Assembly: GCA_009914755.4 (NCBI GenBank)
Contig: CP068257.2
Coordinates: forward strand, 12,608,001 to 12,672,000
Direction: 5' to 3'
DNA from: the human T2T-CHM13v2.0 reference genome, Homo sapiens
Length of the DNA stretch: 64,000 bases
Positions 34,412-52,365 of the stretch are shown piece by piece. How positions within the stretch are numbered: the first letter of the stretch is position 1; each line of letters opens with the position of its first letter. The notes under the pieces are model-generated. The model had not been told where the DNA came from, searched no databases, and saw only the letters and a list, made by a program, of their open reading frames with translations. Made by a program: the position numbers and the translations under genes.

Positions 34412-35818
34412 GTAAGAAAATGACTGCCTCATGTTACATGTGTCAAACAGGAGCTGAGTTTTCTGACTTGAGTTAACAATCACCATCTCGCTAATTATAT
34501 AGAGAGAGTTACAAATGGAAGTCATCGAATTTTATCATTTACTTATTCACTCAACCAGTATTGAACAAGCATGTATCTTATGTCAGCCAGTGTTTCAGGC
34601 ACAGGAAGTACAGCAGTGAGGGGAAATGACAAGTCCAGCTCTCATGAGGGGTAGTGGAGGAGACAGGCATTAAGCAAGTACATAAATAGAGAGAAAACAT
34701 TTGTATATGAAAAAGATTTAGTAAAATACAGTGATGAAGAGACAAAGGATGCCATTTTACATTTAGGATCAGGAAAGTCCTCAGAAAGGGAATGGTATAT
34801 CAACAGGGTGAAGGAGTAATTCAAGTGGACATCTGAGGGAAAGACACACCAAGCAAAGGGAAGAGTATGCATGCAGCCTGGAGGTAGGGGTATGCTTGGT
34901 TGTTTGAAAAGTGAAGTACTGCAGCAAGCAGACAGGAAATGCTTCACTAAATTAATGTTGATATTCTTCCTTTATATTCAGTCATTCATCTTACCATCAA
35001 TATATGTTTTGACATCCCGCCATGTGTTAGACAGTGTGCACTATGCTATACTCTAAGAAATGGAGAAACCACAGAGTTCACTGCATTGAAGGAAATCACA
35101 CTGCAATGAGATAGATGCTTTCATATGTTAAATTAACAGAGGTGGATGTATTGCTTATGAAAACATTTTATAATTTTAAATGGATCAAAGATTAACAATA
35201 TATATTGACATGGAAACATGTCAATCATATTTTAAAGCAAAAAGGAGATTAAATATATGCATGTATATCATACATATGTGTAGCTATATCATTGATCCAT
35301 TATTAAAATGTGAATATACCTATACACATGTGTGTAATGGAGAGGTAAATAGATGAAGATACATAGCTATAAATATATTTGCATAAGCATAGAAGTAATC
35401 TAGAGATAAAGCATCAGTCTTTAAAGAATAGTTACCTGTAAAGTAGAATTAGACAGAAGGAGGATAGATTTTTACTTCTGACTTTAATACCCCAAGTGAC
35501 TAAAAATTGTATAGTATTTTATATTTTTCTTAATTTTTCAAATAAAAGATGACTGGTTTTTAAACATAAAAACTAGAAAATAGCATATATTTATGAAGTA
35601 AAGGTACTTAGCATGCTAGTGTTTAGAATAACAGATTTGTTTATAACAAATATTTTTAACTAGTTTTAAAAAATATATTCTGGATTTTAAAAACTGCTAT
35701 TTAAAGGCACATTATTAAGAATGGAAAAATATTTTTTGAACCTTAATCTAGAGTCCTATAACCTTCAAAGATATTTCAATATTATATCCAAATATACTAA
35801 ATAAAAAATATGACTTTA

Positions 35819-36138
35819 GGCCCGGCGCAGTGGCTCATGCCTGTAATCCCAGCACTTTGGGAGGCCGAGGCGGGCAGATGACCTAAGGTCGGGAGTTCGA
35901 GACTAAACTGACCAACATGGAGAAACCCCGTCTCTACTAAAATATAAGATTAGCCGGGCATGGTGGCACGTGCCTGTAATCTCAGCTACTCAGGAGGATG
36001 AGGCAGGAGAATCACTTGAACCTGTAAGGCGGAGGTTGCAGTGAGCCGAGTTCATGCAATTGCACTCCAGCCTGGGCAACAAGAACAAAACTCCGTCTCA
36101 AAAAAAAAAAAAAAAAGAAAAAGAAAAAGAAAAGAAAA
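35819..36138 (+). mobile_element. Alu SINE with long A/GA-rich tail
   Basis: ggcccggcgcagtggctcatgcctgtaatcccagcactttgggaggccgaggcgggcagatgacctaaggtcgggagttcgagac ... ctccagcctgggcaacaagaacaaaactccgtctc(A)17gaaaaagaaaaagaaaag. Confidence 0.9.
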
Positions 36139-36804
36139 TATGCCTTTAAATCACACACATAATACTAGTGGTATTAAATTGCACACAGAATATGACGGAT
36201 TAGCTTGTAATGCATTCTTCATAAGATATACAAATACTTATGACATATAAAGTGCCAATTTAGTGGAGAAAACACTTAAGAAATGATACCCAAACAAGTA
36301 TAAAATATTATGATAATTGTTAAATATTTGAATAAAAATACAATTGCATAACATTTATAAAAAGAAGAGGAAGGGTATTTGAAAATATACATTTTAATTA
36401 TTCTAATTCCCAAAGAACAAATAAAATTTATAGAGAGCCTTATTTTTATTCTTGTGACACTTCTAAGTATGTACATAAACAGTTAATGGAGTTTTTAGAA
36501 ATGTGTTCTATTTTAGTAGGATGTGGGTGTTATTTTATTATTCATTTTAAACAAATTAGGTTTAAATAAATATATTTTCTACTATTCTACTGTTCGCCTG
36601 TTGGCTATGCTCAAGTTACCTATTTATAACTATCTTCCAACATTGTCAGTAGAATAATGTATAAATATTGTAAGATGCTTTTCTCCATTAAATCTTAAGT
36701 AAAAATAGAGAAAATAGACCATATTTTTAAAATAGCTGTGGACATATCAGTAAAAGTATTACCGATTTTGTCAAATATTCTTTTATCTCCTTTCCATTAA
36801 ATAG

Positions 36805-36870
36805 AAAAGCCAAAGAAAGAACAAAGATAAACAGATAAAACTACTCAAAGAAATCCTACATGGAATTAAG
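36805..36870 (+). pseudogene. ABCC13: micro-exon 6b: KSQRKNKDKQIKLLKEILHGIK (66 nt, phase 0 in and out), downstream of the frameshift
   Basis: Found by scanning the intron for the ABCC motif (ABCC1 MKSKDNRIKLMNEILNGIK, ABCC2 KDKRLKIMNEILSGIK). Acceptor ccattaaatag at 36803-36804, donor gtagta at 36871. Absent from the ORF track because it has no ATG and is short. Confidence 0.65.
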
Positions 36871-38007
36871 GTAGTATGAAAGGGATATGCCTTGGATCTA
36901 TTTTGAGTATAGTAATACAAATGAAGTTTGTAGTGTTCTCAATATCTCAGAGTGATGATAGATAATAATTGTTGGCAGAAAATTTCAGATTTCAGATATT
37001 GTAGGAATTCTTATCACTAAAATAACATTTAAATGCAAAGCCAAATAAAATGCAGCCATTTCTTTTTGTTTCTCACACAAGTAAACACAAATATCCTAAA
37101 AGTCACAACATATTACTTATTTTAAGGTATTATGTTGAAAAGATGCGATGAAGCAGGCAAGAGTGGTAATAATACATCCATCAGTGTAAAGGCAGATTTA
37201 TATAGTGGAAGTGATGAGGTGTCATTTAGGTTATTTTATGTGGGATACAAATGATCACATAAATGCTATTCTATAAATAGTATGTTGCAAATTATTTTTC
37301 TCTAGAAAAGCTGGGATAGTTTAAAAGTGAGAGCAGTCAGTATCCTTGGGGTCTGATAACAGGTGTTATAAAGCCTCTCTCTGACAATACTGATAATTGC
37401 TACCATTTATTAAATATTTTCTATGCATCAAATGCTGTGCTTATTACTTTATATGTGTTTCCTCATGGAATTCTTATAAACCTCAAGAAGAAGATTTCGC
37501 ATTTCCATTTTATTAACTAGGAAACAAAGACACTGAGCAGTTAAGGGTCAGGTCTGAATTTACAGAACCAGTGAGAGTGTATTAGAGTTCTCCACAGAAA
37601 GAGAATCAATAGATTTCATATAGAGAGATATAGATATAGAGAAATATGAAGAGAGATTTAAGAAACTGGCTCATCTGATTGTGGGGGCAGGCAAGTGTAA
37701 TATCTGTAGAACAGGTGGGTAAACAGAAAACTCTAGCAGAAGTTGATGCTGCAATCTTGAATCTGAAGGCAATCTGGAAGCAGAATTCCTTCCCCACTGA
37801 GGAACCTCAGCCTTTTCTCTTAAGGCTGTCAACTGATTTGATAAGGCCCACTCATATAACAGAGGGCAATCTGTCTAACTCAGAGTTTAACTGATTGAAA
37901 AGCTAACAGCATCTAAGAAATACCTTCACAGAAACATCTAGACTCCTGTTTGAACAAATAACTGGGCCCCATAGCCAGTCAAGCAGTCACATAAAATTAA
38001 GCATTGT

Positions 38008-50654: not shown

Positions 50655-50700
50655 TTAATCGTTAGCTTCTCCTTAATCGTTAGCATCTCCTTAATCGTTA
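50655..50700. repeat. 3 tandem copies of a 16-bp unit ctccttaatcgttagc
   Basis: cttctccttaatcgttagcttctccttaatcgttagcatctccttaatcgttacg. Confidence 0.8.
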
Positions 50701-50930
50701 CGAGTAAGCACTTCAGAGAAAGTAGATATATCTTCTAATTTGTGCAAGTTAGTAATGCTAGGAAACGAGATGGGGCTAGGACTGGAAAGTCGTAGATAAA
50801 GAAAGGTTGGAGCGTTCATCTTGGGTTGCTGTCTATCCATGCCATAGAAGAGCATTTGGATGTAACTGCACGTGCTTTGAGATCTATACACATTTCCTCT
50901 GGTCTTGTTTTTCTTCTGCTCCATTTTCAG

Positions 50931-51098
50931 GCTGTGAATATAAGTGGGGGCCAGCAGCATCGAGTAAGCCTGGCCAGAGCTGTCTACAGTGGGGCCGACG
51001 TCTACCTCCTGGATGATCCCTTGTCTGCTATTGATGTTCATGTTGGAAAGCAGCTTTTTGAAAAAGTGATAGGGTCCTTGGGCCTTTTGAAAAACCGG
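50931..51098 (+). pseudogene. ABCC13: exon 13 (NBD1 signature and Walker B): [56 protein letters not shown]
   Basis: Acceptor ttttcag at 50929-50930, donor gtagcc at 51099. Homologous to ABCC1 [56 protein letters not shown]. 168 nt, phase 0/0. Confidence 0.9.
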
Positions 51099-52202
51099 GT
51101 AGCCATAGTTTCATTTATGCTTTCTTGTGGGGCAGGGGATATATCTAGCACTGTGCCTAAAATTCCATTTATTTTGTTTATTTGTTGAAGCAAAGTAGTC
51201 ACATTTCACATGAAAAAAATGGGATGCTCAGATTGCAATTTCACAGGCAAATGTCAATGGGTAATTTTTGAAGTTTTACTTACAAGTTTACTCTGGTGAC
51301 AATTTATGTGATTGTTATCTCTTCATCTAATACCATATCCTAAGGGGATGTATGTGCCATAATGAATTGTTGTTGACTCAAGTGATTTTTACAATGGTAT
51401 TTTGGTGCACACCAAAATATTAATAAAATTTTATATTATTAACATAGCAATTTGACATTATTATCACAGCAATCATAGTGATTCAGCTGTTTTGTTAAAG
51501 GGCCAAGAAGATGAAAATTAGTGTTTACCAGTACATGCCATATTTCACAGGGTAAATTAGTTCAATCCCTATTTCACACATAAAGGAGCTCAGGGCTCAC
51601 AATGACTTGATATAGGTTGCTCAACTTAAGAACAATAGAGATTTTTAAAAGTATGTCTGACTCCAAAGCCACATTCTTCATAATATGTGTTTATGGAATT
51701 ATTAATATAGAGAACTTTGAAAATATATGTATAAAATTATAAAATATATGTCTCAGTAAAAATAAACAAACATCTTTATATATTGACATAAACCCAAGAT
51801 TAAAAATGTCACACTTAATTGTATGTATATGTATAAAATAATATGAATGATTTAAAAATAAGGACTATGAATTATGACTTGGATTAAACACTTTTTTGTA
51901 ATGGTACTGTATATTTAAAAATAAGCAAGAATGACATATATGAAATTGTTTTAAATTTGCAATTAAATTGATTCATTTCTAATGAACGAAAAAATACCCG
52001 AACTAAAGTGTTAAAAATCACATTTAGAAACTATTTTCTCATCTAGCAGCATGTCATTATTCCTTGTAAAATACATAGATGCTGCCTTAAACTGGCACCT
52101 ACCAAAAATCATACTCTGAAATAGTAAAGGAAAAAAGTCATTGTAGCTTTTTTTAAAAAGCCATTTTTCGTAATCTCTGAGATAAAACACTTTGTTTTTC
52201 AG

Positions 52203-52365
52203 ACTCATATTTTAGTGACACACAATCTCACACTTCTGCCACAAATGAATCTTATTGTTGTAATGAAAAGTGGCAGAATAGCTCAAATGGGAATATACCA
52301 GGAGCTGCTGTGTAAAACCAAAAATCTCACTAATTTGCACCAAGTCATCAGTGAACAAGAAAAAG
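52203..52365 (+). pseudogene. ABCC13: exon 14 (NBD1 H-loop to linker): THILVTHNLTLLPQMNLIVVMKSGRIAQMGIYQELLCKTKNLTNLHQVISEQEK(G)
   Basis: Acceptor tttttcag at 52201-52202, donor gtaagg at 52366. Homologous to ABCC1 [49 protein letters not shown]. Phase 0 in, phase 1 out. Confidence 0.85.

What the first reader, a model, noticed from the sequence alone, without database searches (positions are those of the whole stretch)
34412..52365. Ten exon segments downstream of the frameshift remain open, correctly phased and canonically spliced
After the disabling deletion I could still chain exon 6b (36805), 7 (38953), 8 (40426), 9 (43101), 10 (43283), 11 (43702), 12 (47674), 13 (50931), 14 (52203) and candidate exon 15 (58242, weak), roughly 380 codons. 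There are no in-frame stops and no phase breaks. Walker A (GQVGSGKSS), Walker B (VYLLDD) and the H-loop histidine (ILVTHN) are intact. For a region that has supposedly been non-coding, this level of preservation implies very recent inactivation (hominoid-specific?). Alternatively there may be residual use, such as a transcript starting downstream or selection at the RNA level.
Basis: inference. Interest (0 to 1): 0.55.

Follow-up and report, generated by a model that had tools for sequence, protein, structure and literature searches.

The report
Decaying exons of human ABCC13 pseudogene
These are the leftover middle exons of ABCC13, a transporter gene already known to be dead in humans; they still read as open only because the gene died recently, and they show no sign of still being used.

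Summary
The window is the human ABCC13 locus. The 274-aa truncated ORF it encodes matches UniProt Q9NSE7 exactly.

What holds up:
- All ten downstream exons exist at the stated coordinates.
- They chain into 404 codons with no stop, no indel and consistent phases.
- Walker A, Walker B and the H-loop are present.
- The "weak" exon 15 is a real exon.

What does not hold up:
- "Canonically spliced" is wrong at one junction. The exon 11 donor is CT in human and GT in gibbon, macaque and capuchin. No good substitute donor exists.
- The preservation is not remarkable. With the intron-derived mutation rates of this locus, 1.2 kb stays open and in frame by chance about 30% of the time.

Evidence for neutral decay:
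- On the human branch since the gibbon split the exons took 10 replacement and 3 silent changes (ω≈0.95). Gibbon has ω≈0.24 and functional primate pairs 0.17–0.33.
- Five replacements hit residues conserved in at least 99% of more than 100 orthologue sequences.
- Gorilla and chimpanzee models carry further damage in the same exons.

Timing: gibbon, monkeys and most mammals keep an intact gene of about 1296 aa. Chimpanzee shares the 11-bp deletion. So the loss is great-ape-specific, recent, and already published. There is no support for residual use.

The parts
8819..8884 (+). ABCC13 coding exon 1 (ATG at 8819)
   Evidence: tblastn with gibbon P0121 residues 1-22. It starts the 274-aa ORF that matches Q9NSE7 exactly.
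14325..14386 (+). ABCC13 exon 2
22280..22427 (+). ABCC13 exon 3
23134..23276 (+). ABCC13 exon 4
26300..26477 (+). ABCC13 exon 5
34168..34411 (+). ABCC13 exon 6. It carries the 11-nt deletion (between 34236 and 34237), the resulting premature TAA (34393-34395) and an AATAAA hexamer (34396-34401).
   Evidence: Gibbon, macaque and capuchin each have 11 extra nt here. In gibbon they are GATGCTCAGCA, lying between two TCAGCA direct repeats. Stop position, hexamer.
36805..36870 (+). Downstream exon '6b' (66 nt, phase 0 to 0). Encodes KSQRKNKDKQIKLLKEILHGIK.
38953..39090 (+). Downstream exon '7' (138 nt)
40426..40572 (+). Downstream exon '8' (147 nt), the end of the first transmembrane domain
43101..43185 (+). 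Downstream exon '9' (85 nt)
43283..43349 (+). Downstream exon '10' (67 nt)
43702..43828 (+). Downstream exon '11' (127 nt) with Walker [10 protein letters not shown], at 43745-43771
43829..43830 (+). Destroyed splice donor of exon 11: CT in human, GT in gibbon, macaque and capuchin. Read-through reaches TAA at 43835-43837.
   Evidence: The seal isoform P0030 reads through the homologous intron starting with a GT-derived valine.
47674..47850 (+). Downstream exon '12' (177 nt)
   Evidence: 100% amino-acid identity to gibbon.
50931..51098 (+). Downstream exon '13' (168 nt) with the signature motif (ISGGQ), Walker B (VYLLDD, 51000-51017) and the D-loop. It carries G270A (50932), I293V (51000), V303I (51030) and K325R (AA to CG at 51096-51097).
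52203..52365 (+). Downstream exon '14' (163 nt) with the H-loop (ILVTHN, 52209-52226). It carries R327H (52207), D341N (52248) and T356I (52294).
58242..58317 (+). Downstream exon '15' (76 nt). A real exon, not just a weak candidate.
   Evidence: tblastn with gibbon P0121 residues 664-689 gives 96% identity. Also matched by P0002. The next exon lies about 13.8 kb further on in gibbon, so it is outside this window.

Best explanation
This is a unitary, intron-containing pseudogene of an MRP-type ABC transporter on chromosome 21.

The gene was knocked out by an 11-nt slippage deletion in exon 6. That happened in a great-ape ancestor, after the gibbon split and before the human-chimpanzee split. 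Since then the downstream exons have drifted without protein-level constraint.

They still look like exons only because too little time has passed. About one stop-creating substitution and about 1.3 frameshifting indels are expected in these 1.2 kb over the entire branch since the gibbon split. Having none is an unremarkable outcome.

Decay is nevertheless visible. The exon 11 splice donor is lost, and several conserved nucleotide-binding-domain residues are replaced.

Shown here: the gene's identity, the deletion, the donor mutation, the substitution counts and the intact orthologues.
Inferred: the exact timing, and the absence of any RNA-level role.
For: - Identity: the 274-aa ORF from 8819 to TAA 34393-34395 is an exact match to Q9NSE7.2, AAL47201.1 and AAQ22368.1, 'Putative ATP-binding cassette sub-family C member 13 [Homo sapiens]'.
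- Synteny: the window aligns through its introns to the gibbon ABCC13 locus at about 95% identity and to the macaque locus at about 92-94%.
- Deletion: 11 nt are missing relative to three primates. Chimpanzee shares the shifted-frame tail.
- Intact orthologues: full-length models in gibbon, macaques, New World monkeys, lemurs, carnivores, ungulates, rabbit and marsupials.
- Human-branch substitutions in the ten exons: 10 replacement and 3 silent, ω≈0.95. Gibbon branch: 6 and 7, ω≈0.24. Functional pairs give ω 0.17-0.33, and P(N≥10 of 13 | ω=0.24)=0.023.
- Exon-to-intron substitution-rate ratio: 0.75 in human, about 0.5 in gibbon and in macaque plus stem.
- Replacements at positions conserved in at least 99% of orthologue sequences: 5 in human, 9 in gorilla, 4 in Pan. 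The median is 1 in 85 functional-lineage sequences.
- Exon 11 donor +1 is G>C, and there is no good cryptic donor.
- Chance of remaining open and in frame: 0.32 at f=0.5, where f is the fraction of the human branch since the gibbon split spent without constraint. The maximum-likelihood f is 0.5-0.6.
- Literature: human ABCC13 is described as a pseudogene that is functional in rhesus macaque (PMC3908370). A 6-exon, 1.1-kb transcript encoding 274 aa is reported (PMC6922578 citing Annilo & Dean 2004).
Against: - Counts are small, 13 human-branch substitutions. The direct human-versus-gibbon N:S contrast is not significant on its own (Fisher P=0.11).
- Total human-branch exon change is below full-branch neutrality: 13 observed against 21.5 expected, P=0.034. 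Silent changes are on the low side: 3 against 6.5, P=0.11. Both fit partial-branch constraint, but they do not exclude weak residual constraint.
- No DNA from chimpanzee, gorilla or orangutan was available. The age of the donor mutation and the position of the loss relative to orangutan are therefore unknown.
- The ape protein models used are automatic predictions from pseudogenes.
- The locus is transcribed in human tissues (PMC2329642, PMC11479675, PMC9641868). An RNA role cannot be excluded from sequence alone.
Confidence: 0.9

Rival explanations
1. Residual protein-coding use. A transcript starting downstream of 34411 is translated from an internal ATG into a peptide containing NBD1, and selection on that peptide keeps the exons open.
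For: The frame is open over 404 codons. In-frame methionines exist, and Walker A, Walker B and the H-loop are present. Human-branch exon divergence is somewhat below intron divergence, 1.23% against 1.64%.
Against: - Human-branch ω≈0.95.
- Replacement of G270, V303, K325, R327 and D341, all conserved in at least 99% of more than 100 orthologue sequences.
- The exon 11 donor is CT. Read-through stops at 43835-43837, skipping exon 11 (127 nt) shifts the frame and removes Walker A, and the only nearby in-frame GT (43814) scores poorly.
- Gorilla has Walker A G188E, and chimpanzee and gorilla models lack parts of exons 12 and 13.
- In the search with the 404-aa chain, the best hit covering most of the query (92%) was 73% identical, and the closest partial hits were 85-87% identical orthologue fragments. 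So no human-derived spliced ORF of these exons is in the protein collection. This is weak evidence.
Confidence: 0.03
2. RNA-level function. The downstream exons are retained as part of a regulated non-coding transcript, such as an erythroid, fetal-liver or colon lncRNA or a long 3' UTR. Selection acts on the RNA sequence or on splicing, not on the protein.
For: The locus is transcribed and regulated. Evidence for transcription comes from AY344117 (PMC2329642). Expression correlates strongly with heme and erythroid signatures in blood (PMC11479675). The gene is up-regulated in colorectal cancer (PMC9641868). A 14-exon gene structure has been reported (PMC6922578 citing Yabuuchi 2002). Nine of ten donors and all acceptors are intact. 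Silent changes are slightly low, 3 against 6.5 expected.
Against: The silent-site deficit is not significant (P=0.11). One essential splice site is lost, against about 0.35 expected by chance at f=0.5, so splicing is not visibly protected. The other reported transcript stops after exon 6 (6 exons, 1.1 kb), where an AATAAA follows the premature stop. No Rfam family matches the window. An open reading frame is irrelevant to RNA-level selection, so this rival would not explain the observation that prompted it.
Confidence: 0.05
3. Very recent, human-specific inactivation, which would make the intact downstream frame trivially expected.
For: G270A, I293V and T356I are found only in the human sequence among those compared.
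Against: Chimpanzee P0247 has the identical frameshifted tail ...NLMSATHGLDSKPQSPL...CFSCN. V303I, K325R and D341N, all at orthologue-invariant positions, are shared by human, Pan and gorilla. This points to loss of constraint before the gorilla split.
Confidence: 0.02

Closest known systems
Human ABCC13 (UniProt Q9NSE7; pseudogene on 21q11.2; Yabuuchi et al. 2002, Annilo & Dean 2004)
   Same: It is this locus. The 274-aa truncated ORF is an exact match. [quoted passage not shown]
   Different: Nothing differs in kind. I could not confirm from the papers available here whether the exon 11 donor G>C mutation and the list of replaced conserved NBD1 residues have been reported before. The primary papers are not in the library.
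Functional ABCC13 orthologues (e.g. Hylobates moloch P0121 and Macaca P0123, both 1296 aa)
   Same: Same exon structure and boundaries. The introns align at about 92-95% identity. The ten exons have the same lengths with no indels.
   Different: The orthologues keep the 11 nt in exon 6, the GT donor of exon 11, and the conserved residues G270, V303, K325, R327 and D341. They evolve at ω 0.17-0.33.
ABCC1/MRP1, ABCC3 and ABCC2 (solved structures such as 8vt4, 8hvh, 8rq3)
   Same: The translated chain aligns to MRP1 residues 495-864, which span the end of TMD1 and NBD1, with E=5.9e-145. It has Pfam ABC_membrane and ABC_tran domains.
   Different: These are paralogues, not orthologues. By that alignment, G270A corresponds to MRP1 G765 (just before the LSGGQ signature at 768-772), R327H to R822 and D341N to D836 (counted).
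Other primate unitary pseudogenes such as GULOP and CMAHP
   Same: A single-copy gene is lost in one primate lineage while orthologues stay functional. Recognisable exons remain and decay slowly. This comparison draws on general knowledge and on PMC2864566 and PMC7555810, the latter of which lists ABCC13 among such genes.
   Different: The lineage and age of the loss differ. Here a transcript is still made.

Membership tests
ABCC13 orthologue group (MRP-type ABC transporter, subfamily C) | Orthology: same locus and exon structure as ABCC13 of other mammals | tested here: met
   Exact match of the truncated ORF to human ABCC13. Colinear alignment through the introns to the gibbon, macaque and capuchin ABCC13 loci. 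Exon-for-exon tblastn correspondence.
ABCC13 orthologue group (MRP-type ABC transporter, subfamily C) | ABC transmembrane domain followed by an ABC ATPase domain | tested here: met
   Pfam PF00664 (37.1 bits, cut-off 28) and PF00005 (70.8 bits, cut-off 25) on the conceptual 404-aa chain.
ABCC13 orthologue group (MRP-type ABC transporter, subfamily C) | Uninterrupted reading frame encoding a full transporter of about 1296 aa | tested here: not met
   An 11-nt deletion at 34236/7 gives TAA at 34393-34395 and a 274-aa product. So this is a pseudogene member, not a functional one.
ABCC13 orthologue group (MRP-type ABC transporter, subfamily C) | Intact NBD1 catalytic and conserved motifs | tested here: inconclusive
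   Walker A, the Walker B aspartates, SGGQ and the H-loop histidine are present. However G270A, V303I (D-loop), K325R, R327H and D341N replace residues conserved in at least 99% of orthologue sequences. Their effect on activity was not tested.
Unitary (unprocessed) pseudogene | Retains introns and sits at the ancestral position, so it is not a retrocopy | tested here: met
   Sixteen exons are spread over about 50 kb with AG/GT boundaries. The introns align to the orthologous loci.
Unitary (unprocessed) pseudogene | A disabling lesion, with a functional orthologue in related species | tested here: met
   Frameshift deletion plus donor-site loss. Intact models in gibbon, monkeys and many other mammals.
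Unitary (unprocessed) pseudogene | Relaxed (neutral) evolution after the lesion | tested here: met
   Human-branch N:S is 10:3, ω≈0.95. That is incompatible with ω=0.24 (P=0.023) and compatible with ω=1. The exon-to-intron rate ratio is raised, 0.75 against about 0.5. The caveat is small counts and a branch that also includes the time before the loss.
Unitary (unprocessed) pseudogene | No second functional copy of the same gene in the genome | not testable with these tools
   Only a 64-kb window is available. The literature treats ABCC13 as single-copy (PMC7555810).
   ω≈0.95 on the human branch. Five replacements at positions conserved in at least 99% of orthologue sequences.
   The exon 11 donor is CT, and no comparable cryptic donor exists.
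   No expression data are accessible. The only indirect hint is that no human-derived spliced ORF of these exons turned up in the protein collection.

The most novel reading that the evidence does not exclude
The downstream ABCC13 exons keep a lineage-specific, non-transporter role in humans. One example would be part of an erythroid or fetal-liver regulated non-coding RNA whose exon definition is under weak selection. That would account for the slightly low silent-site and total divergence on the human branch.
Probability: 0.05. Interest if true: 0.4.

Novelty: already known. Interest (0 to 1): 0.08.

Why it matters
The finding matters little beyond bookkeeping. ABCC13 has been described as a human pseudogene since 2002-2004, and its functional status in macaque is published.

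The check is a useful calibration. An open, correctly phased run of about 400 codons downstream of a frameshift is not evidence of function in a pseudogene about 10 million years old. At primate mutation rates, roughly one time in three such a stretch survives unbroken by chance.

The analysis adds three small points:
- A second disabling lesion in the human copy, G>C at +1 of the exon 11 donor.
- A list of conserved NBD1 residues already replaced.
- Confirmation that gibbon retains an intact gene, which places the loss within great apes rather than all hominoids.

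Tried and rejected
- The first homologue search, with the 404-aa chain, listed only proteins of 707 aa or fewer. It therefore missed all full-length orthologues. A 1007-aa composite query fixed this.
- Genomic look-ups for Tupaia P0006 and Macaca mulatta P0129 found nothing. Gibbon, Macaca thibetana and Sapajus worked.
- No DNA could be obtained for chimpanzee, bonobo, gorilla or orangutan. Their only records are UniRef protein models. 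The age of the donor mutation and a proper branch-site test could therefore not be done.
- The absence of any orangutan protein among the best 120 hits hints that it too is annotated as a pseudogene. That is not evidence.
- The primary papers (Annilo & Dean 2004, Yabuuchi 2002) are not in the library. Their content is cited only through papers that quote them.
- My first blastn run pooled three loci in one database and gave confusing offsets. It was redone per locus.
- An Rfam scan of the whole window found nothing.
- ORFs and tandem repeats in intron 5 showed nothing relevant.
- I considered a cryptic in-frame donor 15 nt upstream of the lost exon 11 donor (43814) as a rescue route. It scores far below the real donors on a rough consensus matrix that I recalled from memory, so I did not build on it.
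- The GSGKS matches at 34766-34780 (+) and 20113-20099 (-) lie in introns and match no orthologue exon. They are chance matches.

Full report
**1. What is at the coordinates**

With exon ends at 36870, 39090, 40572, 43185, 43349, 43828, 47850, 51098, 52365 and 58317, the pieces join into 1214 nt. That is 404 codons with no stop and consistent phases. The conceptual protein has Pfam ABC_membrane and ABC_tran domains. It aligns to MRP1 residues 495-864, the end of TMD1 plus NBD1, with E=5.9e-145.

Nine donors are GT, but the donor after exon 11 (43829-43830) is CT.

**2. Identity of the locus**

tblastn with orthologues found six further exons upstream. Joined from the ATG at 8819, they give a 274-aa ORF that ends at TAA 34393-34395. 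This sequence is an exact match to Q9NSE7.2, AAL47201.1 and AAQ22368.1, 'Putative ATP-binding cassette sub-family C member 13 [Homo sapiens]'. The window is therefore the human ABCC13 locus.

The literature available here describes ABCC13 as follows:
- It is a pseudogene on 21q11.2 (PMC3908370).
- It encodes a functional protein in rhesus macaque (PMC3908370).
- One reported transcript has 6 exons, is 1.1 kb long and encodes 274 aa. [quoted passage not shown]

**3. The lesions**

I aligned the window to genomic ABCC13 loci of three primates: gibbon (L002), Macaca thibetana (L003) and capuchin (L004).

- *Frameshift.* All three primates carry 11 extra nucleotides between window positions 34236 and 34237. 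In gibbon the sequence is TCAGCA-GATGCTCAGCA-ACT. The human allele has lost GATGCTCAGCA, which lies between two TCAGCA direct repeats. This is a typical slippage deletion. Chimpanzee protein P0247 has the same shifted-frame tail (...NLMSATHGLDSKPQSPL...CFSCN), so the deletion predates the human-chimpanzee split.
- *Splice donor.* The +1 base of the exon 11 donor is G in gibbon, macaque and capuchin and C in human. Read-through of the intron reaches TAA at 43835-43837. Skipping exon 11 (127 nt) shifts the frame and removes Walker A. The only nearby in-frame GT, at 43814, scores far below the genuine donors on a rough consensus matrix that I recalled from memory.
- *Indels.* There are none in any of the ten exons relative to the three primates.

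**4. Who still has the gene**

A search with a 1007-aa composite query returned full-length models of about 1296 aa from many lineages:
- Hylobates moloch, and several macaques and other Old World monkeys
- Aotus, Sapajus and Saimiri
- lemurs
- carnivores, horse, camels, cetaceans and rabbit
- marsupials and platypus

For bonobo, chimpanzee and gorilla it returned only automatic models, which step around the frameshift. The loss is therefore confined to great apes, after the gibbon split. No orangutan model appeared, which is uninformative.

**5. Is the downstream region constrained in the human lineage?**

I reconstructed the human-gibbon ancestor by parsimony, with macaque and capuchin as outgroups.

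| Measure | Human branch | Gibbon branch | Other functional lineages |
|---|---|---|---|
| Replacement: silent changes in the ten exons | 10: 3 | 6: 7 | not counted |
| ω | ≈0.95 | ≈0.24 | 0.17-0.33 (pairwise: gibbon-macaque, macaque-capuchin, gibbon-capuchin) |
| Substitution rate in the ten exons | 1.23% | 1.05% | 2.0% (macaque plus stem) |
| Substitution rate in introns | 1.64% | 2.0-2.2% | 4.3-4.4% (macaque plus stem) |
| Exon-to-intron ratio | 0.75 | about 0.5 | about 0.46 |

- With ω=0.24, seeing at least 10 replacements among 13 changes has P=0.023. With ω=1 it is unremarkable.
- The direct human-versus-gibbon contrast is not significant on its own (Fisher P=0.11).
- The human replacements are not benign. 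In an alignment of the chain with 120 orthologue sequences, G270A, V303I, K325R, R327H and D341N hit positions conserved in at least 99% of sequences. T356I hits a position that is T in 113 of 116.
- In a like-for-like count of replacements at positions conserved in at least 99% of sequences, human has 5, gorilla 9 and Pan 4. The median is 1 (mean 1.13, maximum 5) in 85 functional-lineage sequences.
- V303I, K325R and D341N are shared by human, Pan and gorilla. This points to loss of constraint before the gorilla split.
- The gorilla model also has Walker A G188E and G198E and lacks the 5' part of exon 13. The chimpanzee model lacks 11 residues of exon 12. These are automatic models, so the gaps may be lesions or artefacts.

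**6. Is the open frame more than chance?**

From the introns I took the human-branch substitution spectrum and the indel rate, which was 51 events in 40,504 aligned sites. The table gives the neutral expectation for the 1212-nt chain over the whole branch since the gibbon split.

| Event | Expected if neutral | Observed |
|---|---|---|
| Replacement changes | 15.05 | 10 |
| Silent changes | 6.5 | 3 |
| Stop-creating changes | 0.96 | 0 |
| Frameshifting indels | 1.30 | 0 |
| Hits in the 40 essential splice-site nucleotides | 0.70 | 1 |

Let f be the fraction of that branch spent without constraint. The replacement count gives a maximum-likelihood f of 0.5-0.6, with approximate 95% support from 0.1 to 1.0. 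The probability of no stop and no frameshift is about 0.32 at f=0.5 and 0.10 at f=1.

The silent-site count is not significantly low (P=0.11). There is therefore no positive evidence for RNA-level selection either.

**7. Verdict on the interpretation**

- 'Very recent inactivation' is right in spirit. The loss is great-ape-specific and covers roughly half of the time since the gibbon split. 'Hominoid-specific' is too broad, because gibbon is intact.
- 'Residual use' is not supported. ω is about 1, conserved residues are replaced, a splice donor is lost, and the other African apes show independent damage.
- The locus is transcribed and regulated in human tissues. One reported transcript ends after exon 6, where an AATAAA directly follows the premature stop.
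- An RNA-level role for the downstream exons cannot be excluded from sequence alone. It would not explain an open reading frame, and nothing here requires it.

**8. Novelty**

This is the known human ABCC13 pseudogene. The exon 11 donor mutation and the list of replaced conserved residues may or may not be in the original papers, which I could not read. Either way they are details of an established case.

Noticed in passing
window 34225-34245, compared with L002 24751-24807: The 11 deleted nucleotides (GATGCTCAGCA) lie between two TCAGCA direct repeats in gibbon, macaque and capuchin. The disabling deletion therefore looks like replication slippage between 6-nt repeats.
   Followed up: yes
window 34396-34401: An AATAAA hexamer sits immediately after the premature TAA (34393-34395), inside exon 6. 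It is ancestral coding sequence (KIK). It might serve the reported 6-exon, 1.1-kb transcript.
   Followed up: partly
window 51096-51097: An adjacent double substitution, AA to CG, on the human branch causes K325R. It creates a CpG and changes the exon 13 donor context from AAG|GTAGCC to CGG|GTAGCC. That donor is the weakest of the ten on a rough consensus score.
   Followed up: partly
window 52206-52208 (codon 327 of the chain): The ancestral CGT (Arg, invariant in 114 of 114 orthologue sequences) is CAT (His) in human but Cys in bonobo, chimpanzee and gorilla. These are two different CpG transitions in the same codon. Similarly, A352T is shared by Pan and gorilla but not by human. Either the sites mutated more than once or lineage sorting was incomplete.
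   Followed up: no
window 43709: The human-branch A>G change that causes I171V is shared with Pan and gorilla at the protein level. It creates a new GT (AAC|GTAAAG) 7 nt into exon 11.
   Followed up: no
window 27686-33744: About 6 kb of intron 5 has no counterpart in the gibbon locus, although macaque and capuchin align to much of it. This is probably a gibbon-specific deletion. It contains (AC)34 at 29955-30022 and a (TTTA)n array at 31807-31893.
   Followed up: partly
window 8583-8701: A 63-nt unit is present in 1.9 tandem copies (92% match) in the GC-rich region just upstream of the ATG at 8819. The 297-aa 'PRED6' record (BAA95546.1) extends the ORF upstream through this region from a position that is CTG in the window.
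   Followed up: no
window 58753-58888: An (AGAA)n microsatellite of about 34 copies lies about 440 nt downstream of exon 15 in intron 15.
   Followed up: no
L001 (JGI metagenome contig Ga0103368_10001130, 4308 nt): A contig from a metagenome or metatranscriptome sample encodes a spliced ABCC13 fragment (P0002). Over their overlap it differs by one residue from the elephant seal fragment P0030, and the same stretch is identical in the grey seal protein P0125. It is evidently host (carnivore) cDNA in an environmental data set.
   Followed up: partly
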